NCBI GenBank assembly: GCA_963827165.1
Contig: CAWGZR010000002.1
Coordinates: forward strand, 1 to 59,785
Reading direction: 5' to 3'
DNA: 59,785 bases
From: Candidatus Bathyarchaeota archaeon
GTDB taxonomy: Archaea; Thermoproteota; Bathyarchaeia; Bathyarchaeales; Bathycorpusculaceae
The notes under the pieces: model-generated
The model's input: the letters and a program-made list of their open reading frames with translations, nothing else
Databases searched by the model: none
Told to the model about the DNA's origin: nothing
Position numbers and translations under genes: made by a program
In this document: positions 12,698 through 53,249 of the stretch, one piece after another
Position numbering within the stretch: position 1 is the first letter of the stretch
How the letters are laid out: each line of letters begins with the position of its first letter

Positions 12698-14947
12698 TTA
12701 GTATTTCGCATCTAGTTGTTTTTGGAGCTCTTTTATTTTTCGTTGTCTAGTTATGCTGCCTGCTCTTACCGCCAGAAAGACCCCTGATCCCGCTGCTGCA
12801 ATTATAATCACGAGTATGATGATTGTTTCCGTTATCTGCGAACTGTTGATTTCACTAACGCTGCCAGTTACAATGTTTACTTTCATTGTTAACGCTTGAC
12901 CTGTGTAGTCGATTGTTGCGTTTGTTGCTGGGTACCCTTCTTTGACAAATTTGAAGTTATATTCTCCCGTTATTGCGTTTTTGAAGGTGACGTACCCTGA
13001 TGAGTTTGTAACGTCGATTAATGCAGCCATTCCCGCAGGTTGGCTTGTTGAGGAAACCAAGGTGTTGCTTAGTGGTTGATTGTTTGCATCTTCAACTAGC
13101 CAAGTTATTGACCCTGTACTATTGGCTGTGGCTGTCGGGGTTAGGGTTGGAGTTGGCGTAATGGTTGGTGTTGGCGTCGGAGTTGCGGTAGCGTTGGGTG
13201 TTGGAGTGGGCGTCTGCGTGGGAGTGGGTGTTGGTGTTTGTGAAGGTGTTGGGGTTTGTGTTGGCGTTGGAGTTGGCGTAACAGCCGCCAAAACTGCAAG
13301 TTGCTCGGTGGCTTGGCCGCTAAAGTATCCGGTCTTGGCAACGTTCGCTGTAATAGCGCAATTTGATGCAGTGACCAAGTTTGGCGCTGTGAATGTTGAT
13401 TGGTAGGTTCCATTTCCAAAGTCTGTTGTGGTGCTGAATGTACCGCCGTTGTTTGATGAGAAGCTTACTGTTGCTCCGGATATTGGGATGCCATTGGCGA
13501 TTACTTGAGCTGTAATTGATGCGTAACCTGCACTGGCAACAGTTTGCGGGGTCGCTGTTTCTGTTATTTGCAGAGTAGGGTGGTCAATAAGATAGGTTGT
13601 TACTGTGCCTTGACCAGTAGTGTATCCTGCAGCTTGGGCTGTGATGGGGATTGACCCAGGAGCGTTAGTCACCGTTAAGATTGCTGTGGCTTGCGTATTG
13701 CCCGAGGGAATTGTCACTGTTGAACTGACTGTTCCTATCGTTGGGTTTTGTGAAAACAGATTGACACTTACGTCCTCTTCAAGGTTTTTTGCGGGTAGCC
13801 CTTGTGAGTCTTGAAGCTGCACAATAACAGCGGAATATGCTGCGTTATCGGCTGGAAGTGATGATGGTGCAACGTAGACAGCTAACTTTGGCGGAATAAA
13901 CTCTACTGTGCTTATTGACTGTGAGTCCGAACTCCAATCTGTTGCTGCTGCAACAATGGTTGTTGATCCAGCTGTATACGTAGAGTTGAAAGTGGCTACT
14001 GAGTAAGTTTGACCTGGTTCAATTTCTAAAGTCGAACCAATGTGCCCTATGTTTGTATCGGTTGAAATCAAATTGATGCCGACTACTGCAGACTCGCTTG
14101 CGATGTTTCCTGAACTATCCTGAAGTTCAACTGCAACTTGTGGATATGAGTTGTCGTCTGCCAGAATTGGGTTTGGTCCCACGAAGATCTTAAGATGTTT
14201 AGGACTAACTGGATTGATTGTTACACTTTTTGTTGTAATTGTCATCTGTCTAGATGCATATCCGTTTGCCAAAGTTGTGATGGTTGCGGCTCCTGGTGAG
14301 GTAGTTGTGAGGAAATTGGCTATTGCGTAAGTTTGCCCATATGGTATATTCACTGTAGGGTCAACAGTGCCAACACTGCTGTCCGAGCAGGATAATGTAA
14401 CGGTTACGCCATTTGGTGGTGCTCTTTGAGGTGATCCAGTTGAATCTTGTAATTGGATCATTATGGCTGGGTAGGTTCCTCCATCGGCCGGTAAGATTGA
14501 TGGAAATCCGTATATTGCTGTAGCCGACGGCAGTGGCGTGACTGTTGTTATGGTTGCTTGCTCCGTTGCGTAGCCTGTTGCGGAAACTGAGATTGTTGTG
14601 GTTCCTGGAGTTAGTGTTGTGTAAAAGTTTGCTGATGCGTAGGTTGCGTTTTTGAGTATAGTGATTGTCGGGTCTACTGTTCCAACATTGGTCAAAGAGG
14701 ACGATAGGCTTATAGTTGTATCTTGTAAGGCCCTAAAGGGTTGCCCGCTGGAATCGAGCAACTGAACGAAAACGCAGTTGTAAACATTGTTGTCAGCAAG
14801 CACGCTGGTTGGTGCAACATAAACATTAAGGACGGGATTACTTGCTGCAGCATGAGCAACGCTATTTAGGTTGAATGCTACAAACGCTGAAACTAATAAG
14901 ACGAAAACGATTGTTAAAGCTGCTACTTTCTTGGACATTTTCTTCAT
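12698..14947 (-). CDS. Cell-surface protein with tandem invasin/Ig-like domains, Pro-Thr linker and C-terminal TM
   Basis: Signal peptide; four repeats of P..L.AD...Y..V.VQL.DS.G.P; (TP)n linker at ~13135-13285; TM plus basic tail. Confidence 0.85.
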
Positions 14948-15318
14948 TCTTCCTTTAATTCTTCAATAGAGCCAGTTTTGTCTTCATTATCCTCTTTAGG
15001 TAACAAGTTTAGCACTCCAGTGTTTGCTTCCTGGCAAAGCGTACATGTAATATTTGATAATTCAATATGATAATGCCTAGCCGATTCTGCGCATTGCTTT
15101 ATTCGGCATTCACTAACTATCGGTATTTTGTTTTTCGCTTCATCGCGCAAAATGAAGAGGGCGCACTGTCCATTTACGGCAAACTGACAATTGGCTTTCT
15201 TTAACTCTCCAAAAAAAGTTGCGTTTGATAGTATCTCAACTAATGTCAAGACTTCTTGAGTCTTCTGTTCTTCGAGTTGGTCTATCCGCAAATGGAGTTC
15301 CTCTATTTGATTACCCAT
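14944..15318 (-). CDS. Hypothetical Cys-rich protein, translationally coupled to the Ig-domain gene
   Basis: 124 aa; N-terminal coiled coil, several Cys/His; stop overlaps the next start. Confidence 0.7.
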   Translation of the reverse strand: MGNQIEELHLRIDQLEEQKTQEVLTLVEILSNATFFGELKKANCQFAVNGQCALFILRDEAKNKIPIVSECRIKQCAESARHYHIELSNITCTLCQEANTGVLNLLPKEDNEDKTGSIEELKEE

Positions 15319-15356
15319 TTGTTATTTTTCTTCCAAGCGTTAATTACCGAAGTTGT

Positions 15357-15373
15357 CTTATATACTGCGAAAG
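15357..15373 (-). promoter_or_regulatory. TATA box with atypical upstream element (CTTTCGCAGTATATAAG)
   Basis: About 40 nt upstream of ATG 15318; matches the pilin and ATPase promoters. Confidence 0.65.
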
Positions 15374-15418
15374 GAATTTGGGATCGTGCGGGAGCGATTA
15401 CGATTTTTTCAAAAACAA

Positions 15419-16222
15419 TTAGATTTGTTTTGTTACAGTCAAGGCAAGAATAGCTGGCATGGAAGTTTTTGAAGATCCTTTCAGCTTTCTAATTCTCGCT
15501 TCATTTGTATACACGGTTCTAGCCGATATGTGGAATATTTCACCTATTTTTTCTTTCGAAATTTTTACTTTGTTGCTTTTGCAGGTATTGTAGAATGCGC
15601 CTGCTGCAAGACCAATTGGGTTTCCGCCCGATCTTTTTATTTTGCACAAAATTTCATCGGTTTTGAGAATTAGTTCTTTGTTTTCGGATATTTTGCCGGC
15701 ATATTCATGTAGGTAGTCGCTGGCTGTTTTTCTTTGGATTCTTAGCGGTTTTTTCTCGGCGTTTAAAGTTTTGTTGAGCAGCCACGTTTGCTTCATGACG
15801 GTTTTGCTGTCGAGGCTTAGCTGTTGGCTTATTTCTTTTATTGGCCGCATCTTGTTGTATTCTTTTAGTGTCAAGTGCATTAGGGCTGCTATTGTTGCTC
15901 GCTTGTTTTTTGAAAGTTTCTGTGATTTGGCTAATGCGTGGTTATGGTTTCTTATTGTGCGAGCTGCTTCTTCTCGGTATGGGTAATTAGGAATGTTTAG
16001 TTGGCAGGAGACTGCTCTTAATGTGGTTAGCCACTCTTTGAGTGTTTCTGAGTCTTCTTCATCCCAGTTTGAGTACCATGTCGGAGTCCACTGAGCAAAG
16101 CCCTTTACAATCGGCGTTTGATCTAAGACTAGTCCGCATCTGCTGCAGATTTTTTCTCCGTCTGGACCTTGTGGGAAGATTAATGCGCTGTTACATGTGT
16201 GGCTGTTCAGATTTTTCACCAA
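15419..16222 (-). CDS. tfb: Divergent transcription factor B (TFB/TFIIB) paralogue
   Basis: Zn ribbon (GEKICSRCGLVL), two cyclin repeats (GGNPIGLAAGAFY), C-terminal HTH; B-reader/linker largely absent. Confidence 0.85.
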   Translation of the reverse strand: MVKNLNSHTCNSALIFPQGPDGEKICSRCGLVLDQTPIVKGFAQWTPTWYSNWDEEDSETLKEWLTTLRAVSCQLNIPNYPYREEAARTIRNHNHALAKSQKLSKNKRATIAALMHLTLKEYNKMRPIKEISQQLSLDSKTVMKQTWLLNKTLNAEKKPLRIQRKTASDYLHEYAGKISENKELILKTDEILCKIKRSGGNPIGLAAGAFYNTCKSNKVKISKEKIGEIFHISARTVYTNEARIRKLKGSSKTSMPAILALTVTKQI

Positions 16223-16594
16223 TTGTTGCTTCTTTTTGATTCATCTAATTGAAATCCTATTGAATCATAACTCAAAGTGCTATTATTTGTTGCGAATAGT
16301 GTATTAATATCGGAAATTTATATTCTGAATTATATATTTTGAAATAAATATGCGGAGAATTTGTTTCCAGAAAGAACCAGTACCAAAAAATATCGAAAAA
16401 AGATGCAAATTTGAATTTTTGTTTTCCATGAGCGCGAAATCTTTGCGATCAGGGTTGAACTCAAAATGAAATGAATGAATATGATGCCGAGTTTGAGAAG
16501 ACACCCTGTTCTTGGCAGCATCAGCATTCAACGGGAACTATTTGTCGACAGATCTATGCGATAACTATCAAACCTAATACACGGGACGAAATTC

Positions 16595-16611
16595 GAAACG
16601 CAGTTTATAAG
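16595..16611 (+). promoter_or_regulatory. Pilin 1 promoter (GAAACGCAGTTTATAAG)
   Basis: TATA box followed by a leader with GGAGGTG RBS and ATG 16671. Confidence 0.7.
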
Positions 16612-16854
16612 GGAACTTCTTGAAGGGAATGTCAAATGGAAAGTTCAGCAGGGAGGTGTTTGATAAAAAAATGAATTTCAAAAGAATGATGAAAAACTCG
16701 AAAGCTATTTCACCAATTTTCGCTACCCTTATTCTTATTGCGATTGCAGTTATTGCCGGTGTGGTGGTTTACATGTTTACAAGCGGAACCTTAGCAACCA
16801 TGACAGCGGAGGAACAGCAGGACAAGAAAAAGTTACCGTGCAAGCAGCAAGCAT
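16606..16854 (+). repeat. Direct repeat copy 1 (~249 bp: TATA, 5'UTR and pilin N-terminus)
   Basis: Near-identical to 17554..17802. Confidence 0.95.
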
Positions 16855-17157
16855 TGTCGTTAACGACTTAAAGGTCTTACAAATAAAGTTTATCTTGAGC
16901 AAACAGGGCGGTCCAGCTGCAACTGTGAACAGCTTAATAATTAAAGACACTTCAGGAAATACTGTCGGTGTTATATCGGGCACAAACGCTTTTGGTAATG
17001 GCGTTAGTACCGTAGCCTTGACTTCTGGAATGCTGACTACTTCACTAGTACCACTCCAACAACGGGTCTAACTGTAGGCAGTTCATACACAATTACTGTA
17101 ACAACTGCAGCAGGCGGTAGTTTCGTTTCACCATCAGTCGTAGCAACTTCATCTTAA
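16671..17157 (+). CDS. Archaeal type IV pilin 1 (several indels in this sequence)
   Basis: Class III signal KNSKA/ISPIFATLILIAIAVIAG; ends ...YTITVTTAAGGSFVSPSVVATSS*; about 4 indels relative to pilin 2. Confidence 0.85.
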
Positions 17158-17542
17158 ATCAATGGGTTTTTCCACCCATAGCCTTTCTATTTTTACTTTA
17201 CAGGAAAACATCCGCTGTTAAAAATAGTTAATTTTTCTAATTAAAATAAATTAAATTCAACTAATGCATAGTCGAAAGGATGCGTAAAAAAGTAACAGAG
17301 AATATTTAAAAAAAATGGTCCCCAATGGTTTTGGCTCCTCGGTCTGATTTTTTTTCTCCTTTCAAAGTTTGTCATGTTCCAGACGTAGCAAAGTATTTCA
17401 ATGTGCTCTGAGAAATATGCCGCTATTTTAGGGCAGGCTATATCGAAGAAGGCCGTACACATTTTTGCTATTCATTAACTTTTTTGGAAATGGCAAGTTT
17501 TTGTTTTCTATAAACATCTTTATTCGTGATATATACTGGCGT

Positions 17543-17559
17543 GAAACACGGTATATAAG
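17543..17559 (+). promoter_or_regulatory. Pilin 2 promoter (GAAACACGGTATATAAG)
   Basis: Same spacing to ATG 17618 as in pilin 1. Confidence 0.7.
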
Positions 17560-17802
17560 GGAACTTCTTGAAGGGAATGTCAAATGGAAAGTTCATCAGG
17601 GAGGTGTTTGATAAAAAATGAATTTCAAAAGAATGATGAAAAATTCGAAAGCTATTTCACCAATTTTCGCTACCCTTATTCTTATTGCGATTGCAGTTAT
17701 TGCTGGTGTGGTGGTTTACATGTTTACAAGCGGAACCTTGGCAACCATGACTAGCGGAGGAACAGCAGGACAAGAAAAAGTTACCGTGCAAGCAGCAAGC
17801 AT
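17554..17802 (+). repeat. Direct repeat copy 2
   Basis: Near-identical to 16606..16854. Confidence 0.95.
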
Positions 17803-18101
17803 ATCTGCCGGCGGTAAAACAACAGTGTATCTTGAGCAGACAGGTGGCCCAGCGGCAACCGTGAACAGCATAATAATTAAAGAACTTCAGGAACCACAGT
17901 CGGTGTTATATCCGTGCACTGGTAGTTTAGCTCGCGAATGGTGGAACCGCAGGAAGCACCGTGGCCTTAACTTCAGGAACAATGTTCACTATTGTTGGTA
18001 CCACTCCATCAGGATTAGTTGCTGGCAGTTCATACTCAGTCACTGTTACCACTGCAGCGGGAGGAAGTTTCGTTTCATCCCAAGTAGTAGCAGTTACTTA
18101 A
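17618..18101 (+). CDS. Archaeal type IV pilin 2 (several indels in this sequence)
   Basis: Same N-terminus as pilin 1; ends ...YSVTVTTAAGGSFVSSQVVAVT*; about 3 indels in 17880-17935. Confidence 0.85.
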
Positions 18102-18716
18102 ACCCTTTGGGCTTTTTTCCCAATATTCCATTTTCTAACTTCAGCAAACATATTTTTTGGTCATTGTTTGTCAATTTTCCCTTCTGAAACAGGTCAATTT
18201 AACTATTGTCTCCAAAGAGACCAATGGTAAATAAAAACACTGCTAACATTTTTGCGGAACTAACCAAAATATCCCTGTGAAAGAATTAGAATCGAAAAAT
18301 GGTAAGTCGAACCACTTAAGCAATAGGTTTTCAGCGAGCCATTGATATTTAGAATAGGTCAAAATGTTTTTGATTCGTGTATTCCCTTAAGTTACTAAAC
18401 TTATCGCAAAAAGAAATTCCTATGAATTGACTGCTGCAAGTTTGAAGCTTGGATAGTGAATTTCGAAATAAAAAAAGGAACGTCGTCTGGTGTCAAATTG
18501 ATCGTCAAGTGCATGAGGATAATTTCCATTTCTAAAAAAACCTACTTTATTAATGAACTGTCGGAATGAACTGGCAGAAAGCGGTAGAATGCTGAGTACA
18601 GATCGAGAGTTGTCTGTGAAAACAGGGAATGAATTTCGAGTTTCCATTGTTTCTCTTAGGGTTAAGTCTATCTCAAGCTTGGCCTATCCAAAAATTAACC
18701 GGTGAGGAGTCAACAA

Positions 18717-19249
18717 ATGGTTAAACGCAAACATAACTTTAGGCCCTTTGGTAGGCGTGCTCTTAGTCCAATATTTGCCACAATGTTGTTAGCCGCAATC
18801 GTAATTGTTTTTGGCTCAGTCGCTTACTATTTTTCAAGCAATCTTACATCCACAGTAACAAACAATTATGCTAGCACCATGTCGAATAGTCAGCAAGCGG
18901 TTGCGGAGAGAGTGGGATTCGAATATGTGCAGCACAGTTCTTCGTCATTAACTGTTTACATAATTAATTGCGGAAGCTCCAATAACATACAAATCGACTC
19001 CGTGTTCATCTATGATTCAAACAATAACATTCAGGGAGATTATTCTGGTTCGCCAAGTCCAATTTCATATTTGTATCTATAGGCGGGAATGGCGCCTTAA
19101 TCAACGGGAACGGTAAAAGCCTTAACGTCGGACAGGAAGCATACTTTACCGTCACGTTAACTGGTTCCTCTCTAAACACTGGTTCTTCATACATTATTCA
19201 CCTTGTAACTAAAAGCGGGAGCAGTTTCAATTATGATTTCACGGCGTGA
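18717..19249 (+). CDS. Minor pilin-like protein; frameshift near 19075
   Basis: GRRA/LSPIFATMLLAAIVIV class III signal; continues in another frame ...SLNVGQEAYF...YIIHLVTKSGSSFNYDFTA*. Confidence 0.8.
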
Positions 19250-22200
19250 TTTTGGAAGGAACAGAAAAGGCATCGGCACAGTTTTCGGAATGGTATTTTT
19301 CATACTTATAGTCATGATTGTAATTGCAAGCCTTATGGTGATTCTAAACCAGAATACCGGTCTAGAACAAACCACAATCCAAGCAAAGCAGTTGGATTTG
19401 GATCGCTATACAGAACTTGAAACCGTATCAATCAATAACCCTGAAACAGCCGTATTAAATAACGTAGTCTATGTAAGCTGCTCAGTCTCGGACAATGGCA
19501 CGCTTCCGGTTGAATTGGATCGATTTTGGATTAGAGATGTAAATACAGGGACCGTCAATAATATAGCAGTAACTCCAAGCGTTACCCTGCAACCTGGAGC
19601 CAGCACTTATTATTTCAATTACCTTTCCATTGCTGGTTCATCGTATTCTGACCAGTTTATAATTTGGTTTGTTACAGCAAGAGGAAACAGCATCTCAGAC
19701 TATCCAAATATTAACAAATTTAATGGTATAATGTTAAGTGGATCATTCCCGGGAGTGGCTGACATGAACTCTACTTACCAAACTAACTCTACCCCCATGC
19801 AGTTGTCTCTTGTAACAACTCAACCTAATCAACTGATTTATGTAGTTGTATCTTATGACGATGGCAATACATTGTACACTCCTACCTCATCACCCAGCTT
19901 GACCTGGGCTTTGAGGGATGCGTCACAAACTACAGCCACCGCTCCATATTCGGGGGATAGTATTTTGAAAACCTTCTATGCTATTGATTCTTCAGTCGGT
20001 CTAGTAACGATCAGCATCCACTCAACTGCCGATGAATTAAGCGATTATTATTGTTCAGCACTAGCATTCGCAATTAGCAATGTAAACACTACTTCTCCAT
20101 TTGATGGTCCACCACTAGGTCAAGGGCCACAAACCTCCATAGGTGAATCTACTACGGTGCAAGATACAATCACTACTCATTACGCAAATGATATGATAAT
20201 AGGTGCCCTGGGAATCGACAATCTTAACCCTTCAATAACGCCGGGCGCAGGTTTCGCTCAAATTATGCCGGTGCAGAGTTCATACGGTGCCTCGGGAGAA
20301 GATAACGCTATGCCTAGATCCGTGTGGAGCGAATGGGCAATAATGAAGACACCTGTGAAAAACTTATCAGTAAATTGCTCTTTTACGTCATCGGAAAATT
20401 GGGCTGTAATTCTTGATGCTGTGAGATTGGTTGTGGTAGCTCCCCCCTCTCCAGTGGTTCTTTCCCCTACTATTGGTACAACTGGCCAGGTAGTTACTGT
20501 TTCAGGAACAGGTTTTGCGGCCAACTCTCAGCTTCAAGCTCTGTTTGATGCCACACCAATTCCTTTCAGCTTCACCACCGACGCCTCAGGCAATATCCCA
20601 TCTGGCGCCACCTTTACTGTCCCGCAAGGTGTGACACCTGGTTCTCACTTAGTCACCATCTACGACGGCAAGTACAATTATGGAAATGCCACTTTCACAG
20701 TCGTACCTTCAATCACAATAGTCAGCCCAGTGAGCGCAGCGGGCGTCGCTGGTTCAACTGTGACCATCTCAGGTTCCGCCTTTGCAGCTAATTCAACTTT
20801 GACTGCAACATTTGGCGGCGCCCCCGTAACAATAAGCGGGGTTAGCAGCACTAATTCCACCGGCCAATTTGTAAATGCGACCTTCACCGTTCCTTCACAG
20901 ACAGGCGGCAGTCAAAACCATAACATTTTCCGATTCCGCAATTCCAGCCCAAAACACTGCATCCATCACTTTTACCCTTAATCCAACAATCTCCATAAGC
21001 TCATCGACTGGCACTGTAGGATCAACAATCACAGTGTCGGGATCCAACTTTGCTGCCAGCTCAAAAATAACTGTGAAGTACGACGGGACAACATTGACGA
21101 CGAGTCCTGCAACAATAACAACTTCCGGTTCAGGTGCCATCCCTTCAGGCGTAACATTTACTATTCCTGCTTCAACAGCGGGCAATCATGCAATTACAGT
21201 TACAGATGCAAGCTCGAACGTTGGCTCTGCCTTTTACACCGTGACTCCAACAATTACCCTGAACCCAACAAGTGGCAACGTTGGCACATCAATTCTTGTT
21301 TCAGGAACAGGATTTGCAGGCTCATCAACAATTACAATAACCTATGATGGAGCTGTACAAATTTATTCAACTTCTAACAGCGTCGGCTCATTTAGTGCGT
21401 CATTTGCTGCTCCAGCTTCAAGTTCAGGTGTTCACACCATACAGACAACGGATGGAACCAACACTGGCGCTGCCACTTTTACCATAACGTCGCTCATCGT
21501 TTTGAATCCATCTTCAGGCATAGTTAGCTCGACCGTATCCGTTTCAGGTTCAGGCTTCACTGCTAATGCTCAAGTAACCATGACCTTCGGTGGTTCAGCG
21601 ATTGCTACAACACCCACGCCAGTTACAACGGGAAGCACCGGCTCTTTCAGTGCATCCTTTATTGTTCCCGCAGGTTCTATAACGGGTTCTATAGCAGGGG
21701 CAAAAACAATTCAGGCAAATGACGGCACAAACACGGCTTCTGCCGTATTCACTGTAATTCCAGCAGTCACCGTTAACCCAACAAGCGAAAACGTCGGCTC
21801 AACAATCACCGTTTCGGGAACAGGTTACGCCTCCTTAAGCCAAATGACAATTAAGTATGATGGGACAACTCAAACAACTTTGCCCGGAACAGTCACTTCA
21901 ACCAACTACGGCGCATTCAGTTGCACCTTCTTAGCGCCAGCTTCAGTCGCTGGGCTTCATACGGTATCCGCAACCGACGCCAGTACAAACACCGCGGCCG
22001 TCACATGCACTATTGTACCATCAATCACTCTTAACCCAACTTCTGGAGGTTACGGTTCAACTGATTACTATTTCGGGAGGCGGATTCGCTGCTTCCAAAA
22101 TCTATCACTGCCACCTTCAACGGATGCTCCTGTCACTCTAAGCGGCACAACAACTACAGGCGCCACCGGATCATTCACTGGCGCAACCTTCACTGTTCCA

Positions 22201-23958
22201 ATCTCAACAATAGGCGCACAGACCATTGTCGTCACTGACGCAAACTCGAACTCCGCATCCACCATCTTCACCGCAACTCCCGCAATTATCCTTCCTGCTC
22301 TCGGCGAATCAGGCACATCTATCTCTGTTACAGGCTATGCATTTGCGCCCAACTCAGCCTTAAAAGCAACCTTCAATGGATCTCCCCTTACCCTTACCGG
22401 CACAACAACCACGAGCGCCACAGGCTCTTTCAGTGGCTCAACCTTCATTGTTCCAACCATCTCGACGGGCCCAGAAACAGTTGTATTCTCCGACTCTGCA
22501 ACCCCAACTCCAAACACAGCCCAAGCCACCTTCACGGTTACAGTAGCGATAACAATAACCTCAAGTCAAGCTGGCGCAGGCTATATCCAAGTTGACGGCG
22601 TCGCTGTTACAACCCCCATCATCTTCCACTGGCTAACGGGCAACTCACATACAATATCAGCCCAATCTCCAGTGTCAGGCGGGACAGGCAAACAATATGT
22701 CTACACGAGCTGGAGCGATACTGGAGCACAAAGCCACACCTATGCAGTACCAAGCTCATCTGCAACTGTTACAGCTAGCTACAAAACACAATATCTACAA
22801 ACATTTGCTGGTTCTGGTCTTGCTGGTGATGCTACTGGGAACTTGGTTACTTTCACGGTTAGTGGTGGTTCGTATTCTGGTGCTACTAGTCCAATTGGCA
22901 TTTCTGGCGGTTCGATTTGGGTTGATAATGGTGCAACTGTCACCTATGCCTTTGTTAATCCTGTTACGAGCAGTGTAACTGGAAAGCAGTATCGGCTTAA
23001 CAGTGTTACCGGTTCAGCTTCCCCAATTACGGTTTCAGGTGCTAACACGTTAACAGGCAACTATGTGGTTCAATGGCAGGTAACATTTGCTTCTTCCGGA
23101 AGTGGAACAACAAATCCCTCGGGAACTAATGTTTGGGAAAATACAGGATCACTCTCGATATCTGCAACCCCAGGCACAAACTATCATTTCTCCTCTTGGA
23201 GCGCTACAACAGGAATAACAATTACGAGCTCAACATCTGCTTCGACAACAGCTACCATAGGCGCTTCTGGCACAATCACCGCAAACTTTGGGTTGAATCC
23301 TGCAATAGATGGTTCAGGAACAGGATCCGCCACTAGCGGAACCACATTCACAATATCTGCTTTCAGTACTTCAAATACTAACGATTTGATATATGTCTCA
23401 GTGACAAGTTACAACAGATATGTTAGCAGCATTTCAGGAACCGGCGGCCTAACCTTTGCATGTAGACAAAGTGCTGGCAATACTCTTACCTGGTCATATT
23501 CAAGCAACAATTACTACATTAGTACCTGGTACGTAGTCAAGCCTTCAACAGGATCAATAACAATAACTGTTACAATGTCCGGCTCTATAACCAGTGCAGC
23601 AGCAGTGGCATATGGTATCAGCAACGTTAACACGGTCTCTCCTTTCGACGGTGCCTACGCCACCGGTACTGGTACTGGAACATCAGCAACTGCTGCCAAA
23701 ACTACCTCTAATCCAAATGACATGATCATCGGCGCAGCAGGCGTTTCTAGTGGCACAAGTTCGTCCCCTGCACTCACTGTAGGCTCAGGTTTTACATCCG
23801 TTAACACGGCAACGCAGAACTCAGGAAGCTACCGCGTTGAGACCTCGGCTGAGTACCAGATATTGACTGCACCGCAAACCAACTTTGCGGTAGGCTACAC
23901 ATGGAGCGGTTCATATGGTTGGACAATGGTCGCCGACGCGATACAACCAGCCTCATAG
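19233..23958 (+). CDS. Giant (~1570 aa) pilin-signal adhesin with tandem IPT/TIG-like repeats; frameshift near 20915 and compensating pair near 22070-22110
   Basis: NRKG/IGTVFGMVFFILIV signal; repeated P.SG.VGS.ITVSG.GF...F.VP units; ORFs 19233..20981 and 20875..23958 join within one repeat. Confidence 0.85.
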
Positions 23959-23972
23959 TCGCGAGTTTGTAG

Positions 23973-23989
23973 CTTACACGGTTTATATG
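23973..23989 (+). promoter_or_regulatory. ATPase operon promoter (CTTACACGGTTTATATG)
   Basis: About 35 nt upstream of TTG 24024; same CRCRG-T-WTATA element. Confidence 0.65.
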
Positions 23990-24023
23990 GACTCTTAAGG
24001 AATGAAATCTTGGAGACGCTAAT

Positions 24024-25643
24024 TTGAAGCTTTGGAAACCAAAGGGTAAGCAGGAGCAGCAGCAAAAAACAGTGGATAGTTCCTCAGTTATAGATGAGGA
24101 TATCCCTGGCCCAACCGTAGAGGCTTCAACAGAAACTTCTGGGGTATCAGACGTCTCAGAATCATATAAGGAACATTATCCTCTCTTAATTCCATTCTCT
24201 TATGCGGCTATAGTTGAAAGCGCGAGAAACGATGTAAAATACTCGGTTTTGGAACCAACATTAACTGAATCAGACAAGCAGTCTTTGGCTGAGCTGAAAA
24301 ACATTCTTTGGGACGAGCTTACCGTTAATATAAAGAATCTAAAGGATCCTCAGGCAGCAGAAGATTTCTTAAAGTTTAAAGTTTTAGAAACAGCTGTGAA
24401 ATATCACATCAGCTTGGACAGCAAAACATTAGGCAAATATCAGTATTTTGTTGTCAGAGATTTTTTGGGCTACGGAAAAATTGATGGCATAATGCGAGAT
24501 GAGAACATTGAAGACGTCTCATGCGATGGCATTAATTCTCCAGTATTCGTTTGGCATCGCAAATACGAATCAATACCGTCAAACATAGTTTTTGAAACGT
24601 CACAAGAACTGGAAAACTTTGTTTTCAAACTCGCCTATCTATGTGGCAGGCACATTTCCATTGCGCAGCCAATCCTTGATGGAACGTTAAATAATGGTAG
24701 TCGAGCCCAAGTAACTTACGGAACAGAAGTCACCCCTAAGGGCAGCACCTTTACAATAAGGAAATTCAAAAAGAGCCCACTCACCATCACAGACCTAATA
24801 ATTTACAAGGCACTATCAACAGAAATTGCAGCTTATTACTGGTTCATAATAGAAAACAGGCACTCAGTTATGATTGGCGGAGACATTGGTGGAGGAAAAA
24901 CCTCGATGCTAAACGCCATCAGTCTATTCATTAGACCAACACTAAAGATAGTCAGTATAGAGGACACACAGGAAATACGTCTACCTCACCAAAACTGGGA
25001 AATGATGGTAACCAGGCAAGGCTTAGGCACCGGCGCAGGGGCAGTTGGAGAAGCTGGAATCGGCAGTATAAGCATGTTTGACCTACTTCGAGCAGCACTT
25101 AGGCAAAGACCTGACTTTATCATAGTGGGTGAAATTCGAGGTGAAGAAGCTTACGCATTATTCCAAGCCATGGCGACGGGACACTTAGGCTTAACCACCA
25201 TACACGCTGAGCATGTCCAAGGAGTCTTGCACCGACTAACAACTAAACCCATGAACATTCCGCACACTCAAGTCGAAAACTTGAATGCAATTTCAATCGT
25301 TCGAAGACTTGTCGTAAACAACGTTTCTTTAAGACGAACCATAAGCGTTTCAGAAATGGTCGGTTGGAATAAAGAAAAACAGGATTTTGAAATTCAAGAT
25401 ATATTCAAGTGGGATGCCGAAAAAGACATTTACGTAAAAGTTGGCAGGAGCCCACTTTTAGATAAAATAGCTGCCCAATGGGGGTATTCACCGGATGAAA
25501 TTGATGAGGAGCTAAAGATTAGACAAACTATCCTCGACTACATGATTAGAAAGCATGTGCGATCATACGAAGACGTTTCCAAATTGGTTCTAGATTACTT
25601 CTCAAACCCCGAACAGGTATACAGGAAAGCAAAAGTGAGCTAA
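24024..25643 (+). CDS. Type IV pilus/type II-IV secretion assembly ATPase (FlaI/TadA-like)
   Basis: IEDVSCDG, FTIRKF, Walker A GDIGGGKTS, SIEDT, LRQRPD, Walker B IIVGEIRG and TGH motifs. Confidence 0.95.
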   Translation: MKLWKPKGKQEQQQKTVDSSSVIDEDIPGPTVEASTETSGVSDVSESYKEHYPLLIPFSYAAIVESARNDVKYSVLEPTLTESDKQSLAELKNILWDELTVNIKNLKDPQAAEDFLKFKVLETAVKYHISLDSKTLGKYQYFVVRDFLGYGKIDGIMRDENIEDVSCDGINSPVFVWHRKYESIPSNIVFETSQELENFVFKLAYLCGRHISIAQPILDGTLNNGSRAQVTYGTEVTPKGSTFTIRKFKKSPLTITDLIIYKALSTEIAAYYWFIIENRHSVMIGGDIGGGKTSMLNAISLFIRPTLKIVSIEDTQEIRLPHQNWEMMVTRQGLGTGAGAVGEAGIGSISMFDLLRAALRQRPDFIIVGEIRGEEAYALFQAMATGHLGLTTIHAEHVQGVLHRLTTKPMNIPHTQVENLNAISIVRRLVVNNVSLRRTISVSEMVGWNKEKQDFEIQDIFKWDAEKDIYVKVGRSPLLDKIAAQWGYSPDEIDEELKIRQTILDYMIRKHVRSYEDVSKLVLDYFSNPEQVYRKAKVS

Positions 25644-25648
25644 ATAAA

Positions 25649-26530
25649 ATGAAGTTCGAACCTTGGACCTTAGCTTACCAGAAATTTGGGAAAAGATTGG
25701 AAAGGATTTATCCTCAATTTCAGGAGCTACATATTCAGCTTAAGAAGGGCGGCGTGCTAATTGCATTTAAGGCATATGTTGCCTTTATGGTGCTGCTTTC
25801 GATAGTTGCGTTTGTTGTAGCGCTTGGGGCATCCTTTGTGATTTTGCCTCTTTTGTTGAGGATCCCGTACCTATCTGGAATGAATTTTGTATTTAGTTTG
25901 TCAGCTGCATCTGTTGTGGCTTTGGTGACATTAATGGTTATGTATCTTTATCCAGGTATGAAAGCCAGTAACAGAAATGGGCCGATTGACAGAAATTTAC
26001 CGTACATAGCGAACTTTCTTACTCTCCTCTCAAGTTCAAATGTTCCACCAAGTGTCATTTTTGAATCGGTAGCAAAGATTGATACCCTAAAAGAGGCACG
26101 CTTAGAATTCAGCAACATCATTAGAGATATCCAAATCTTTGGTCAGGATTTGCTCACTTCAATTCTAGATAATGCCAAACTAACACCAAATGATCCCCTT
26201 CGAGAGCTGCTTATCGGTTACGTGGCTACGGTAAAAACTGGCGGAAATCCAACTGAATACCTCAAAGTTACATCTGGTCAAATAACTCAAGAAAGAATGA
26301 CTAAATTAGATTCAATGTTAGAATCGCTCTCTGCGATGGCAGAAATATACATCATGCTACTAGTCGCTGCTCCCCTGCTTTTCTCAGTTCTCTTCGTAAC
26401 GCTAGGCATGATAGGTAGCGGCGCAGTATTCGGCATGAGCATGGGAACCCTTCTTTATCTGATGGTTTACCTTGGAATCCCAATACTTGGCGGAACACTA
26501 ATTGTGATAATGTCCTCATTGGAGAAGTGA
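25649..26530 (+). CDS. Pilus platform membrane protein (TadC/FlaJ, T2SSF)
   Basis: IDRNLPY, FGQDLL and TGG motifs; TM helices; follows the ATPase. Confidence 0.9.
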   Translation: MKFEPWTLAYQKFGKRLERIYPQFQELHIQLKKGGVLIAFKAYVAFMVLLSIVAFVVALGASFVILPLLLRIPYLSGMNFVFSLSAASVVALVTLMVMYLYPGMKASNRNGPIDRNLPYIANFLTLLSSSNVPPSVIFESVAKIDTLKEARLEFSNIIRDIQIFGQDLLTSILDNAKLTPNDPLRELLIGYVATVKTGGNPTEYLKVTSGQITQERMTKLDSMLESLSAMAEIYIMLLVAAPLLFSVLFVTLGMIGSGAVFGMSMGTLLYLMVYLGIPILGGTLIVIMSSLEK

Positions 26531-27360
26531 CCACAATGAAGATGACCAACAAAACAATAAAACGGATGCAAATAATCTCAGCTATATCAGCAGTCATTTT
26601 CTTTGTGGTAGCCCTAGTATTCTATCTCACATCGCCAACTTTAGATTACATGATGGTCATTGCGATTTCGATTGGCGTAGTTCCTCCCAGCATAGGACAA
26701 GTAATACACAACAAATGGCGACTAAAAATTGAAAAAGCAATGCCTGAATTCTTAAGAGACCTAGCAACCGCCCAACGAACAGGTATACCCTTACAAATAG
26801 CCTTAGAACACGCTTCAAAACGAATGTATGGGCCATTAACTGACGAGCTCAAAATCCTTGTCGCACACATGAGTTGGGGCATGAACTTTAACGAAGCTCT
26901 AACAGAATTCGCTAATCGCTTGGAGTTACCTTTAGTCTCAAAAGCAACAGTTCTAATTAACGAAGCCGGAAAACATGGCGGGGACTTATGCGATATTTTC
27001 AACTCCACGGCAAAATACCTAGAGAACATGAATTCATGGAGTGAAAAAAGAAGAGTACAAACATTTCCTTACATAGCTATATTCTACTTTTCCGTTTTCA
27101 TGTTCTTGTTCATCATTATTGTAATTTCAAATATGATGTTTGCTCCTTTAGCTCACACAACCACAGGCACATCTTTCATAAAACCAATCTTAACCCAAGC
27201 CCAATCACGAAGATTATTCCTCCATGCTTCACTACTTGAAGCTTTGTTTGGTGGTCTCATAGCCGGAAAAATAAATGAAGACTCTTTTCTAGACGGGCTA
27301 AAACATGTGGCGATACTGGCAATTGCTACTGGAATAGCATTTTATCTATTCCTGCCTTAA
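26527..27360 (+). CDS. Second pilus platform membrane protein (TadC/FlaJ, T2SSF)
   Basis: IEKAMPEFLRDL, YGPLTDEL, SWG, GLIAGKI and GLKH motifs. Confidence 0.9.
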   Translation: MTTMKMTNKTIKRMQIISAISAVIFFVVALVFYLTSPTLDYMMVIAISIGVVPPSIGQVIHNKWRLKIEKAMPEFLRDLATAQRTGIPLQIALEHASKRMYGPLTDELKILVAHMSWGMNFNEALTEFANRLELPLVSKATVLINEAGKHGGDLCDIFNSTAKYLENMNSWSEKRRVQTFPYIAIFYFSVFMFLFIIIVISNMMFAPLAHTTTGTSFIKPILTQAQSRRLFLHASLLEALFGGLIAGKINEDSFLDGLKHVAILAIATGIAFYLFLP

Positions 27361-27416
27361 CAAATATTATTTAGTTTACATCGGATAAAGTCAGCAAAAA
27401 CTGAGGAAGCGCGTAT

Positions 27417-28628
27417 ATGAAAAAAAACCTGCTCGGCGATACCAAAATGGAAAGTGATAACGAACAAGCAGCGGTGAGCAAAATGTCGACAGAAAAGCCA
27501 GAAGCAGTTTTGACCTTAGGTTTAGATGACAAGATAGAACTTGAAAGAAAGGAAGCATACATTGAACCCAAAACACGCCAACTCCTAAGAGAACTAATTC
27601 AATGCGAAGAGAAATATCAAATAATCCCAAAATATAATCCAGGAGTAGGTTTCGTTTATCAAATAACGGAACAAAAAACAAATGCTCCTGAAACCCTCAA
27701 TATTTCAGAAGACTTCCTGGAGAATCTTGCAAGGCTAGATATACTTCACAAAGAGTTTTATGACTCGGTATCAGTTTGTCCAACTTGTCATTCGCCGATA
27801 ATAACGCTTCATAATCGGTGTCCCAAATGCAAAAGTCACAATATTGATAAAACAAGCCTAACCGAACATATCCTGTGCGGCTTCATTGATCAAAGAAACA
27901 ACTATGTTAACAACCGTTGCCCAAAATGCGGAGAGCGCTTGGTAGAAGGGCAATTTAGGAATATGGGCCGCTGGTTCGTTTGTAGAGATTGCAGTGAAAG
28001 GTTCGAGGATCCTGAATACGATGTAACCTGCCGAAGCTGCGGTAAAGGTTTCTTAATTAAGGAATCGCAACTAACAGAAATACCAAAGTTTTCTTTAAAC
28101 CTGAACAGGAAAAAAGAGATAAGACAGAACGTCGCCAGTTTGGAAAGCTTTAGAGAACTCTTGGCAGATTTGGGCTTTAGCGTTGAAATTCCGGGGTTGG
28201 CGATGGGTCAAAAGAGTGGAATGCAACACCAATTCAGCCTCATTGCTAAAAAACAAGTCAATGGCCAAGAAATAAATGTAGCTCTTGATCTCGCAGTTAG
28301 CGAACCAGAAGTTTCTTCTTCGCCGCTCATTCTCTATATCTACAAAACATCAGAAGTGAAAGTTGATATCCCGATTTTCGTCGCAATGCCTGTTCTAAAC
28401 GAAACAGCAAAGAAGATTGCTCAGGGTCATGAGATTCTACTCATAGAAGGATCACCTGACGAAAAAGAAGTAATAGAGAATATAAAATCTGAAATTGAAT
28501 CGCGAATCGACGCGAAATTAGTTGAACCAGGGATAAAGGAAAAACCGAAAAACAACGATGGACCGAGAAACTCGTTTATGGGTAAATTCGGGAAAATAGC
28601 TGATTTTGGAAAAAAATCAAAGAACTAG
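27417..28628 (+). CDS. TackOD1-like multi-Zn-ribbon protein with C-terminal restriction-endonuclease-like domain
   Basis: CPTC, CPKC, HILCG, CPKC, CRDC and CRSC motifs; then GQKSGMQHQFSLIA. Confidence 0.7.
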   Translation: MKKNLLGDTKMESDNEQAAVSKMSTEKPEAVLTLGLDDKIELERKEAYIEPKTRQLLRELIQCEEKYQIIPKYNPGVGFVYQITEQKTNAPETLNISEDFLENLARLDILHKEFYDSVSVCPTCHSPIITLHNRCPKCKSHNIDKTSLTEHILCGFIDQRNNYVNNRCPKCGERLVEGQFRNMGRWFVCRDCSERFEDPEYDVTCRSCGKGFLIKESQLTEIPKFSLNLNRKKEIRQNVASLESFRELLADLGFSVEIPGLAMGQKSGMQHQFSLIAKKQVNGQEINVALDLAVSEPEVSSSPLILYIYKTSEVKVDIPIFVAMPVLNETAKKIAQGHEILLIEGSPDEKEVIENIKSEIESRIDAKLVEPGIKEKPKNNDGPRNSFMGKFGKIADFGKKSKN

Positions 28629-52250: not shown

Positions 52251-53249
52251 ATGGAGTTAGAAAATATGAGTACAACCCAAATTAATGTACCTGAAGATGT
52301 ACAAAAAACTAATCAGCACTTAGTTGAGAAGTGCCCAGAATGCGCAAGCAAAAATTTGGTTCATGACTATGACTCGGGCGAAACCATCTGTGGTGACTGC
52401 GGTCTTGTTTTGTATGAGCAGATGATGGATAAGGGCCCAGAGTGGCGTGCGTTTACTGCAGAAGAGAAAACCTCGAGAAGTCGCGTCGGCATGCCCACAT
52501 CATATTCAATTCATGATAAAGGATTATCTACTGCTATTAGCCAAGTTGATAGAGATGCGTTTGGAAGAAAACTACCATTAGCCACTAGGTTGCAGATGTG
52601 GCGTCTTAGGAAATGGCAAATACGCAGTCGAGTACACTCATCCATCGACCGAAATTTGGCACAAGCAATGGCTGAACTTGAACGTTTATCCAGCAAAGTT
52701 TCCATCTCACCGCCAATAAGAGAGAAAGCAGCCGTCGTTTACAGAAAAGCGCTGGACAAAGGCTTAGTCCGTGGAAGGTCAATCAACGCCATCGCCGCAG
52801 CCTCACTTTATGCTGCTTGCCGAAAAAGCGGATCACCCAGGACTCTTCGCGAAGTGGCCGAGGCTAGTCTTGTTGATAGGAAAGATGTTGCAAGATGCTA
52901 CAGGCTGCTTCTACAAGAGCTTGATTTTCATATGCCCCTCTCTGACCCAATGACGTATGTCTCAAAAATTGCAGAGAAAACAGGAATATCGGGCAAAACA
53001 CAAGGCGCAGCAATAGCAATACTTAGGATAGCTAAGCAAAAAAGAGTTTCAGCAGGAAAAGACCCTATGGGTTTAGCTGCCGCCGCACTCTATATCGCAT
53101 GCTTACAGAATAGCGAAAAACAAACGCAAAAAGACATCTCTGAGGCAGCTGGAGTCACCGAAGTTACAGTTAGAAACAGATACAAGGACCTAATGAAACG
53201 GCTGCACCTTGAAACACCTGATAAGAAACTTGTTCCAAGTTTTCTTTGA
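52251..53249 (+). CDS. tfb: Transcription initiation factor IIB (canonical)
   Basis: CPEC/CGDC ribbon, GPEWRAF B-reader, RLRKWQ, GRS, GKDP, VTEVTVRNRY. Confidence 0.97.
   Translation: MELENMSTTQINVPEDVQKTNQHLVEKCPECASKNLVHDYDSGETICGDCGLVLYEQMMDKGPEWRAFTAEEKTSRSRVGMPTSYSIHDKGLSTAISQVDRDAFGRKLPLATRLQMWRLRKWQIRSRVHSSIDRNLAQAMAELERLSSKVSISPPIREKAAVVYRKALDKGLVRGRSINAIAAASLYAACRKSGSPRTLREVAEASLVDRKDVARCYRLLLQELDFHMPLSDPMTYVSKIAEKTGISGKTQGAAIAILRIAKQKRVSAGKDPMGLAAAALYIACLQNSEKQTQKDISEAAGVTEVTVRNRYKDLMKRLHLETPDKKLVPSFL

What the first reader, a model, noticed from the sequence alone, without database searches (positions are those of the whole stretch)
15357..23989. Candidate sigma-like system: divergent TFB plus a shared non-canonical BRE across the pilus/adhesin promoters
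Seen: four promoters in the locus align as WCRCRG-T-WTATAWG. They are CTTTCGCAGTATATAAG (15373-15357, minus), GAAACGCAGTTTATAAG (16595), GAAACACGGTATATAAG (17543) and CTTACACGGTTTATATG (23973). Other promoters inspected here have A-rich BREs (e.g. CAAAATCTTATAA, GAAAATTTAAATA). The two pilin promoters share ancestry, so there are about three independent instances. Established: TFB reads the BRE with its C-terminal HTH, and Sulfolobus TFB3 controls the ups pili, though TFB3 lacks that HTH. Inference: the embedded TFB paralogue is a dedicated initiation factor that recognises CRCRG and switches on the whole surface programme.
Basis: partly seen in the sequence, partly recalled or inferred. Interest (0 to 1): 0.85.

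Follow-up and report, generated by a model that had tools for sequence, protein, structure and literature searches.

The report
Pilus-locus TFB paralogue with own promoters
A Bathyarchaeia pilus and adhesin gene cluster carries its own stripped-down copy of the general transcription factor TFB together with a promoter signature found nowhere else in the genome, which makes it a clean candidate for a sigma-factor-like switch in archaea.

Summary
In 30 related loci it reads W-C(-5)-N3-S, then TWTATWAG, then NN-AACT, then N5-AAT.AA. It sits before four to five transcription units: the orf124-adhesin operon, the pilins, a pilin-like/TIG operon and the ATPase operon. Only the C at -5 is invariant; CRCRG is not conserved.

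A weight matrix built only from other genomes ranks this locus's sites 1 to 4 among 6.26 million positions. A strict 20-nt pattern hits 20 of 26 genomes that have the TFB paralogue and 2 of 94 that lack it. Two orthologous pilus loci that lack the paralogue and orf124 have no motif; one keeps an orf124 remnant, so it lost them.

The paralogue is a true TFIIB-family protein with a Zn ribbon, two cyclin repeats and an HTH whose recognition helix is altered. It lacks the B-reader/B-linker region. That it reads the motif, and whether it activates or blocks, is inference; no RNA data were available.

The parts
12698..14947 (-). Adhesin-like surface protein, 749 aa, second gene of the orf124 operon
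   Evidence: Pfam Invasin_D3 (77 bits), Big_1 and CarboxypepD_reg. It lies downstream of the TFB paralogue in 30 of 30 loci; orf124 lies between them in 29 of the 30 and is deleted in the G136 locus.
14944..15318 (-). orf124: small Cys/His-rich protein of unknown fold, first gene behind a signature promoter
   Evidence: No Pfam or NCBIfam hit. C44, C52, C71, C76, H82, H84, C92 and C95 are invariant in 44 homologues. No PDB fold match.
15340..15370 (-). Signature promoter of the orf124-adhesin operon. T1 of the TATA box is at 15364, C(-5) at 15369, AACT at 15354-15351, AATTAA at 15345-15340.
   Evidence: 22.6 bits, rank 3 of 6.26 million genome positions with a matrix built from other genomes. 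The same promoter is found in 29 of 29 loci that hold a detectable orf124, with T1 41-48 nt before the ATG.
15419..16222 (-). Divergent TFB paralogue (TFBL, 267 aa): Zn ribbon, no B-reader/B-linker, two cyclin repeats, HTH with an altered recognition helix
   Evidence: Orthologues at 62-86% identity in 26 of 120 genomes of the genus.
16300..16345 (-). Likely promoter of TFBL itself; a different class with an A-rich upstream region. Coordinates are approximate.
   Evidence: Read. Orthologues share a different conserved upstream element; the window copy looks shortened.
16598..16628 (+). Signature promoter of pilin 1 (T1 at 16604)
   Evidence: 29.7 bits, rank 1 in the genome.
16672..17157 (+). 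Pilin 1, a duplicate of pilin 2 with a broken reading frame
   Evidence: A 1-nt deletion near 16806 and later indels relative to pilin 2. The ORF is split into 16620-16871 and 16838-17071.
17546..17576 (+). Signature promoter of pilin 2 (T1 at 17552)
   Evidence: 27.8 bits, rank 2 in the genome.
17618..18187 (+). Pilin 2, 189 aa, with a class III signal peptide
   Evidence: TIGR02537 archaellin/type IV pilin N-terminal domain, 32.9 bits against a cut-off of 20. Pfam Pilin_N is weak.
18540..18570 (+).
   Evidence: 18.9 bits, rank 4 in the genome. The same class is seen in 23 of 24 orthologous genes scoring at least 4 bits.
18702..19082 (+). Pilin-like orf126; it stops early compared with its orthologues
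   Evidence: The region 19083-19232 is homologous to the C-terminal coding sequence of the orthologues.
19233..23958 (+). Two large IPT/TIG-domain surface proteins (582 aa and 1027 aa, overlapping at 20875-20981)
   Evidence: Pfam TIG. No promoter of their own; their upstream sequence is coding.
23976..24006 (+). Signature promoter of the ATPase operon (T1 at 23982). It has the same upstream AC..G and the same AATGAA at +20 to +25, but the block after the TATA box differs.
   Evidence: All 15 of 15 ATPase promoters examined share this form.
24024..28628 (+). Pilus assembly operon: T2SSE ATPase (539 aa), two T2SSF membrane proteins and a TackOD1-domain protein (403 aa)
   Evidence: Pfam hits.

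Best explanation
The locus is a self-contained transcription module. A lineage-specific TFB paralogue (TFBL) is encoded next to four or five promoters that share a non-canonical core-promoter signature.

Proposed mechanism:
- TBP binds the near-consensus TATA box (TWTATWAG).
- TFBL, not a housekeeping TFB, sits on the TBP-DNA complex.
- Its C-terminal HTH, with an altered recognition helix, reads the upstream element (W-C at -6/-5, S at -1).
- Its first cyclin repeat lies over the conserved G-NN-AACT just downstream of the TATA box.
- Its Zn ribbon recruits RNA polymerase.
- Because TFBL has no B-reader/B-linker, opening would depend on TFE and on the conserved A/T-rich AAT.AA block, which falls where DNA first melts.
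- The outcome is coordinated switch-on of pilins, adhesins and the assembly ATPase. TFBL itself is driven from a different promoter.

Shown: the signature, its restriction to this locus, its conservation, its co-occurrence with TFBL, and the domain make-up of TFBL.
For: 1. Specificity. A matrix built from 18 sites in six other genomes ranks the window's sites 1-4 of 6.26 million positions (29.7, 27.8, 22.6 and 18.9 bits). The next hits score 17.0 and lie inside genes.

2. Conservation. There are 70 sites of at least 16 bits in 30 loci (557 kb), and 67 of them lie within 400 nt upstream of a locus gene on the right strand. In the 22 loci not used to build the matrix, 19 of 21 orf124 genes, 15 of 23 pilin genes and 8 of 17 orf126 genes have such a site. 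Positions outside the scored window are still 96-98% conserved (A+20, A+21, A+25), while -4, +9 and +15 to +19 vary.

3. Co-occurrence. The strict pattern gives 41 hits in 120 genomes. Of these, 39 are in 20 of the 26 TFBL-positive genomes, and I counted 36 of the 39 within 5 kb of the TFBL gene. Two hits fall in 2 of the 94 TFBL-negative genomes. The reversed control gives 8 hits. Counting only genomes not used to define the pattern, 13 of 19 have a hit.

4. Natural loss. G109 and G115 keep intact pilus genes but have neither TFBL nor orf124. Their best site in 20 kb scores 4.8 and 8.8 bits. G109 holds a decayed orf124 remnant, so the module was lost there.

5. Geometry. The conserved blocks flank the TATA box on both sides and are asymmetric. 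This is where TFB's two cyclin/HTH domains bind (BREup and BREdown; PMC4581349, passages read). Pyrococcus TFB1 cyclin repeat I cross-links at -20 (PMC13502027, passages read).

6. Protein. The HTH helix reads IS.RTVY[ST]NE in 12 of 12 TFBL sequences, against VTEVT[VI]RNRYK in the 5 canonical TFBs of this genome. R235, T236 and N240 are invariant in all 49 aligned TFBL homologues, and V237 and Y238 are at least 90% conserved.

7. Precedent. [quoted passage not shown]
Against: - There is no binding, expression or TSS data; no RNA run holds the locus.
- TFBL lacks about 59 residues that in canonical TFB are needed for promoter opening (PMC13502027). It could occupy promoters without firing them.
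- orf124 co-occurs with TFBL in every genome examined and was lost together with it, so genomics cannot separate the two.
- G110 keeps a perfect ATPase promoter with no TFBL or orf124 found. However, its contig starts 3.5 kb upstream and its ATPase is sister to that of a TFBL-positive genome.
- G109 and G115 may represent a single loss event; the tree does not place them.
- The genomes are kin, so the counts overstate independence.
- Six of 26 TFBL-positive genomes have no strict-pattern hit, although looser matrix hits exist in the five of these six whose loci were scored (G084, G085, G087, G098, G130).
- In the window copy, the first Zn-ribbon Cys is a Ser.
Confidence: 0.48

Rival explanations
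1. TFBL reads the signature but acts as a promoter-specific block or decoy. It binds TBP-DNA at these promoters through its cyclin/HTH core. Lacking the B-reader/B-linker, it cannot support opening, so it holds the surface genes off until it is removed or out-competed.
For: About 59 residues of B-reader/B-linker are absent in all 12 aligned TFBL sequences. Mutations and deletions in these elements abolish opening and transcription in Pyrococcus TFB1 (PMC13502027, passages read). The co-occurrence and loss data fit a repressor as well as an activator.
Against: The promoters lack the A-rich upstream element of ordinary promoters, so they look like poor substrates for canonical TFB. A repressor would have little to repress. 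TFBL keeps a conserved Zn ribbon (C10, C26 and C29 invariant), which would not be needed merely to occupy DNA. Pyrococcus TFB2 shows that a divergent B-reader does not abolish function.
Confidence: 0.17
2. Another factor reads the signature. This could be orf124 (a Cys/His-rich protein always next to TFBL) or an unlinked regulator binding over the TATA region. TFBL would then have a different job.
For: orf124 is present with TFBL in every TFBL-positive locus set examined and is lost together with it. A partial inverted repeat (AGT..ACT) brackets the TATA box, as at an operator for a dimer.
Against: - orf124 has no recognisable DNA-binding fold.
- The strongest positions, C(-5) and AAT.AA at +20 to +25, have no symmetric partners.
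- When -1 is C instead of G, +13 stays C, so the 'palindrome' does not covary.
- The TackOD1 protein of the ATPase operon is kept in the loci that lost the motif.
Confidence: 0.2
3. No dedicated reader exists. The shared sequence is a strong core-promoter 'cassette' inherited with a horizontally moving locus and used by housekeeping TFBs. TFBL is a passenger.
For: The locus is patchy (26 of 120 genomes) and sometimes present in two copies. The genome already has 5 canonical TFBs and 2 TBPs.
Against: - Specific positions stay invariant across four promoter classes and down to 52-57% TFBL identity, while neighbouring positions drift.
- The signature decays where TFBL and orf124 are lost although the structural genes remain.
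- Nothing similar exists at any other promoter of the genome.
Confidence: 0.1
4. The resemblance is chance plus one duplication.
For: The pattern was defined after the fact from four sites, and two of them are a duplication.
Against: Observed 4 against about 0.5 expected per genome, all within 8.6 kb. A matrix built independently and the 120-genome scan find the same sites.
Confidence: 0.01

Closest known systems
Pyrococcus furiosus TFB2 (alternative TFB with divergent B-reader/B-linker)
   Same: Both are TFB paralogues with a Zn ribbon and a cyclin core but without conserved B-reader/B-linker sequences. TFB2 still initiates, weakly, and is helped by TFE or pre-melted templates (PMC13502027, passages read).
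   Different: In TFBL the region is missing rather than divergent (about 59 residues). Its HTH recognition helix is changed. It sits inside a small target locus that has its own promoter signature. I read of no distinct promoter element for TFB2.
Sulfolobus TFB3 and the ups pili
   Same: A TFB paralogue tied to expression of a type IV pilus operon. A short non-palindromic promoter motif is needed (PMC5817253, abstract; PMC6101591, passages read).
   Different: [quoted passage not shown] It is thought to work in trans with TFB1, and its motif lies upstream of the core promoter. TFBL is the reverse: it has a full DNA-binding core, and the motif lies within the core promoter. TFBL is not TFB3-like by domain content.
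Sulfolobus acidocaldarius TFB2 (cell-division regulon)
   Same: A TFB paralogue occupying a defined set of promoters, including its own. The authors report a distinct promoter architecture (bioRxiv 10.64898/2026.09.06.749720, abstract and passages read).
   Different: There the BRE looks similar to that of TFB1 and only the BRE-TATA spacing differs. Here the upstream element has a different sequence (C at -5, not A-rich), downstream blocks are conserved too, and the TFBL promoter itself is of another class. Their figure S5E and supplementary data could not be seen.
Haloarchaeal TFB/TBP expansions
   Same: Multiple TFBs are proposed to act like sigma factors, with differing genome-wide binding (PMC3261711, passages read; PMC7289017, passages read).
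   Different: Those are full-length TFBs with large overlapping regulons. The main text of PMC3261711 does not mention a BRE (0 occurrences of the term in my search of the text). Here one truncated paralogue pairs with four or five promoters in cis.
Human Brf2 (TFIIB-related factor of Pol III)
   Same: [quoted passage not shown] This is a precedent for a BREd-like reading such as G-NN-AACT.
   Different: Brf2 is eukaryotic, works with Pol III and has extra C-terminal and redox-sensing parts. There is no evolutionary link beyond the family.

Membership tests
TFB/TFIIB family (for the 267-aa protein) | N-terminal Zn ribbon (CxxC ... CxxC) | tested here: met
   The ribbon aligns with that of the canonical TFBs. 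C10, C26 and C29 are invariant in 49 homologues. In the window copy the first Cys is Ser (S-H-T-C).
TFB/TFIIB family (for the 267-aa protein) | B-reader and B-linker between the ribbon and the cyclin core | tested here: not met
   An alignment gap of about 59 residues against the 5 canonical TFBs of the same genome. Only PEW...LKEW remains. The model is low-confidence at residues 35-48.
TFB/TFIIB family (for the 267-aa protein) | Two cyclin-fold repeats | tested here: met
   The family profile matches 1d3u_B and 1ais_B over residues 61-236 (E 2.4e-6) and human TFIIB (E 3.3e-7). Foldseek returns TFIIB, TFB and Brf chains at every rank from 1 to 32.
TFB/TFIIB family (for the 267-aa protein) | C-terminal helix-turn-helix that contacts the BRE | tested here: met
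   The HTH aligns with that of Pyrococcus TFB, but the recognition helix differs: RTVY in place of VTVR (VTIR in one). Which of these residues touch bases is recalled from the TFIIB literature and was not checked in a call.
TFB/TFIIB family (for the 267-aa protein) | Reaches the curated family score | tested here: not met
   Pfam TFIIB 20.7 bits against 23.6; Zn_Ribbon_TF 19.6 against 29. NCBIfam NF001658 42 bits against 384, whereas the canonical TFB in the window scores 424.
Archaeal BRE/TATA core promoter | 8-bp A/T-rich TATA box at promoter distance from the gene | tested here: met
   TWTATWAG; T1 lies 41-48 nt before the orf124 start codon and 58-77 nt before the pilin start codons.
Archaeal BRE/TATA core promoter | A-rich BRE next to the TATA box | tested here: not met
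   C(-5) is 100% and A is never seen at -3 in the 18 training sites. Ordinary promoters of this genome have 41-47% A at -6 to -3. PMC7289017 (passages read) describes the BRE as A-enriched.
Archaeal BRE/TATA core promoter | Transcription start about 22-27 nt downstream of the TATA box | not testable with these tools
   No RNA run holds the locus.
Sulfolobus TFB3-type factor | Short protein lacking the cyclin/HTH DNA-binding core | tested here: not met
   TFBL has both cyclin repeats and the HTH. TFB3 lacks them (PMC6101591, passages read).
Archaeal type IV pilus locus | T2SSE ATPase, T2SSF membrane protein(s) and pilins with a class III signal peptide | tested here: met
   T2SSE 109 bits; two T2SSF proteins at 51 and 68 bits. 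Pilin N-terminal domain TIGR02537 at 32.9 bits against a cut-off of 20. A prepilin peptidase was not searched for.

The most novel reading that the evidence does not exclude
TFBL and its promoters form an orthogonal initiation system in an archaeon. A TFB with no B-reader/B-linker nevertheless directs RNA polymerase to promoters defined by their own BREup-like and BREdown-like elements plus an easily melted block. The factor and its cis elements travel together as a portable pilus/adhesin module. That would be the clearest archaeal counterpart of an alternative sigma factor with its own -35/-10 code.
Probability: 0.35. Interest if true: 0.85.

Novelty: new variant of a known kind. Interest (0 to 1): 0.72.

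Why it matters
Whether archaeal TFB paralogues select promoters by sequence, as bacterial sigma factors do, is a long-standing question. The known cases give broad overlapping regulons (haloarchaea), a trans-acting fragment (TFB3), or only a spacing difference (Sulfolobus TFB2).

This case offers one small factor, a handful of short promoters in cis, a defined invariant base (C at -5), downstream blocks, and natural loss variants. Everything needed for a gel-shift or in vitro transcription test fits on one plasmid.

It would also show what a TFB can do without a B-reader/B-linker, and how uncultured peat and soil Bathyarchaeia control surface adhesion.

Tried and rejected
- Unseeded and seeded EM motif discovery on 2138 upstream regions drifted to low-complexity motifs and was dropped. 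I used hexamer anchoring instead.
- Gene calls are from my own crude dicodon caller (3289 genes), because no gene finder was available. Distances to start codons are approximate.
- RNA evidence: no RNA holder was listed for window 14900-19300. Read laying was not used, so TSSs could not be mapped.
- Complex prediction on TFBL plus orf124 gave no answer (score 0.00). This is evidence neither way.
- orf124 gave nothing in Pfam, NCBIfam, the protein atlas or PDB fold search.
- The ATPase tree could not place the two TFBL-less loci because the forks are open. Loss versus gain rests only on the orf124 remnant in G109.
- G136 looked like a case of TFBL without orf124, but other orf124 copies exist in that genome. 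It was rejected as a dissociation.
- The idea that the signature is a palindromic operator was considered and ranked low, because the repeat does not covary and the strongest positions are asymmetric.
- The second pilus locus of this genome, on contig C1, has no such promoters.
- No integrase or tRNA flanks the locus.
- The residues of TFIIB that touch BRE bases are recalled. My search found no open paper naming them.
- Literature: searches found no paper on a Bathyarchaeia TFB paralogue or on this promoter signature.
Full report
**What is there.** The window is a whole 59.8-kb contig of a 3.13-Mb, 14-contig genome. Public names for close homologues identify it as a Bathyarchaeia archaeon.

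Between 12.7 and 28.6 kb lies a type IV pilus and adhesin cluster:
- On the minus strand: a 267-aa TFB-like gene (TFBL, 15419-16222), a 124-aa Cys/His-rich gene (orf124), and a 749-aa Ig-domain adhesin.
- On the plus strand: two pilin genes (the first with a broken frame), a pilin-like gene, two large IPT/TIG proteins, a T2SSE ATPase, two T2SSF membrane proteins, and a TackOD1-domain protein.

The neighbours are housekeeping genes. No integrase or tRNA flanks the cluster.

The four strings are at the stated positions.
- WCRCRGTWTATAWG occurs four times in the genome, all within this 8.6-kb stretch. Twelve Markov-3 genomes gave a mean of 0.5, and 100 window shuffles gave 0.00.
- The shorter core has 11 hits against 5.75 simulated. 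Of the seven outside the locus, five lie inside genes and two are intergenic.
- Ordinary promoters of this genome are A-rich at -6 to -3 and have C at -5 in only 14% of 173 TTTATA sites.
- The two pilin promoters belong to one duplication, so there are three independent instances.

**The signature is larger and different in detail.** TFBL orthologues (62-86% identity) occur in 26 of 120 genomes of the genus. I fetched 29 further loci.
- Every locus keeps TFBL followed by the adhesin. orf124 lies between them in 29 of the 30 and is deleted in the G136 locus. Most loci have the pilus genes alongside.
- Aligning the upstream regions gives one architecture before four gene classes: W at -6, C at -5, three variable bases, S at -1, TWTATWAG, two variable bases, AACT at +11 to +14, five variable bases, and AAT.AA at +20 to +25.
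- The ATPase class (15 of 15) has the same upstream part and the same +20 to +25 block, but a different stretch directly after the TATA box.
- A fifth window site at 18546 belongs to the pilin-like class.
- In 55 distinct sites from 22 loci that played no part in building the matrix, C(-5) is 100%. A+20, A+21 and A+25 are 96-98% although they were not part of the score. Positions -4, +9 and +15 to +19 vary freely.
- CRCRG is therefore a local spelling: position -3 is T in 60% of sites.
- More distant loci (TFBL 52-57% identical) still carry AC..G-TTTATA promoters.

**Specificity and co-occurrence.**
- A matrix made from 18 sites of six other genomes puts the window's sites at ranks 1 to 4 of 6.26 million positions. 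The next hits (17.0 bits) lie inside genes.
- The 30 loci hold 70 sites of at least 16 bits, 67 of them correctly placed before locus genes. The rest of this genome holds three.
- A strict 20-nt pattern scanned over all 120 genomes gave 41 hits. Of these, 39 are in 20 of 26 TFBL-positive genomes, and I counted 36 of those within 5 kb of TFBL. Two hits are in 2 of 94 TFBL-negative genomes. The reversed control gave 8.
- Leaving out the seven genomes used to define the pattern, 13 of 19 TFBL-positive genomes have a hit.
- These genomes are kin, so the counts are not independent trials.

**Natural loss variants.** ATPase orthologues of at least 78% identity also occur in six genomes with no TFBL hit.
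- Two of them (G109, G115) have complete loci in which the adhesin directly faces the pilin gene, with neither TFBL nor orf124.
- Their best matrix scores over 20 kb are 4.8 and 8.8 bits. The ATPase promoter is gone and the other promoters are degraded at the conserved positions.
- G109 keeps a decayed orf124 fragment at the expected place, so this is a loss.
- The two may share one event; the tree is unresolved.
- G110 keeps a perfect ATPase promoter with no TFBL found. Its contig begins 3.5 kb upstream, and its ATPase is sister to that of a TFBL-positive genome with strong support. An assembly gap is the simpler reading, but I cannot show it.
- G082 has orf124 at a contig edge.

**The protein.**
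- TFBL falls below the Pfam and NCBIfam cut-offs. Even so, its family profile matches Pyrococcus TFB and human TFIIB across both cyclin repeats, and its model (pLDDT 77.8) finds TFIIB, TFB and Brf chains at every rank from 1 to 32.
- Aligned with the five canonical TFBs of the same genome, it has the Zn ribbon (first Cys replaced by Ser in the window copy).
- It lacks about 59 residues of B-reader and B-linker.
- Its recognition helix reads IS.RTVY[ST]NE where canonical TFBs read VTEVT[VI]RNRYK. R235, T236 and N240 are invariant in 49 homologues, and V237 and Y238 are at least 90% conserved.
- That the replaced positions are the base-contacting ones is recalled from the TFIIB literature, not checked.
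- The genome also has two TBP genes.

**How it most likely works.**
- The conserved blocks lie on both sides of the TATA box and are asymmetric. This is the footprint of a TFB core: the second cyclin/HTH on BREup and the first on BREdown (PMC4581349). Pyrococcus TFB1 cyclin repeat I cross-links at -20 (PMC13502027).
- With the TATA box placed conventionally, AACT falls at about -20 to -17. AAT.AA falls at about -11 to -6, inside the initially melted, A/T-rich region (PMC7289017).
- I therefore favour TFBL as a dedicated initiation factor for these promoters (0.48).
- The missing B-reader/B-linker is the main doubt. These elements are needed for opening, but Pyrococcus TFB2, where they are divergent, still works weakly and is rescued by TFE or pre-melted DNA (PMC13502027).
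- The same data fit TFBL as a locus-specific block (0.17), another reader such as orf124 (0.20), or no special reader (0.10).
- orf124 gave no fold or family clue.
- TFBL's own promoter is of a different conserved class, which suits a two-step cascade.

**Comparison and novelty.**
- The nearest cases are Pyrococcus TFB2, Sulfolobus TFB3 with the ups pili, Sulfolobus TFB2 with its division regulon, haloarchaeal TFB expansions, and human Brf2.
- None of them combines a B-reader-less but DNA-binding TFB with a distinct core-promoter code restricted to a cis-linked mini-regulon.
- I found no paper on it.
- I rate it a new variant of a known kind.

**Limits.**
- There is no expression or binding data.
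- Gene calls are crude.
- Sites were picked by best matrix score, which biases the scored columns.
- The genomes are related.
- The loss test may rest on a single event.

Noticed in passing
window 16672-17157: Pilin 1 is a duplicate of pilin 2. Its sequence is identical to pilin 2 from the TATA box for 36 nt downstream and near-identical through the rest of the 5' leader and the N-terminus, but it has a 1-nt deletion near 16806 and later indels that break the frame. It is either a pseudogene or an assembly error.
   Followed up: partly
window 18702-19232: The pilin-like orf126 stops at 19082, whereas its orthologues continue to the start of the next gene. The remaining 150 nt are still homologous coding sequence, which suggests a second broken gene in this copy of the locus.
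   Followed up: no
window 27417-28628: The last gene of the ATPase operon carries a TackOD1 'output' domain (85 bits) with zinc-ribbon hits. It is a possible signalling or regulatory protein and is conserved even in loci that lost the TFB paralogue.
   Followed up: partly
window 52251-53249 and genome contigs C3, C5, C11, C12: The genome encodes five canonical full-length TFBs (one in this window) and two TBPs besides the divergent paralogue. That is a large basal-factor set for a non-halophile.
   Followed up: partly
loci L041-L073, about 100-130 nt upstream of the TFBL genes: The TFB paralogue's own promoter region carries a separate, strongly conserved element (GAATTC..TTCTYAAG before a TTATAAG-like box). 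The window copy seems to have a shortened version. Its reader is unknown.
   Followed up: no
G109:C6:62845-62964 (L048 about 12846-12965): A decayed fragment of orf124 with two stop codons lies between the adhesin and pilin genes of a locus that lacks the TFB paralogue. This marks a deletion of the regulatory pair.
   Followed up: yes
L073 9700-9900 (G136): orf124 is reduced to a 14-codon stub, yet its signature promoter is intact and now sits directly before the adhesin. Other orf124 copies exist elsewhere in that genome.
   Followed up: yes
L076 and L101: Two contigs carrying this archaeal locus belong to a genome bin titled as a Cytophagales bacterium. They are probably mis-binned.
   Followed up: no
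genome contig C1 about 16300-21300: A second type IV pilus locus (ATPase 46% identical) has no TFB paralogue and none of the signature promoters.
   Followed up: partly
window 15419-16222 (residue 7 of the protein): In the window's copy, and in its closest relative, the first cysteine of the Zn ribbon is replaced (S-H-T-C or N-H-K-C), while most orthologues have CxxC. The nearby histidine might substitute.
   Followed up: no
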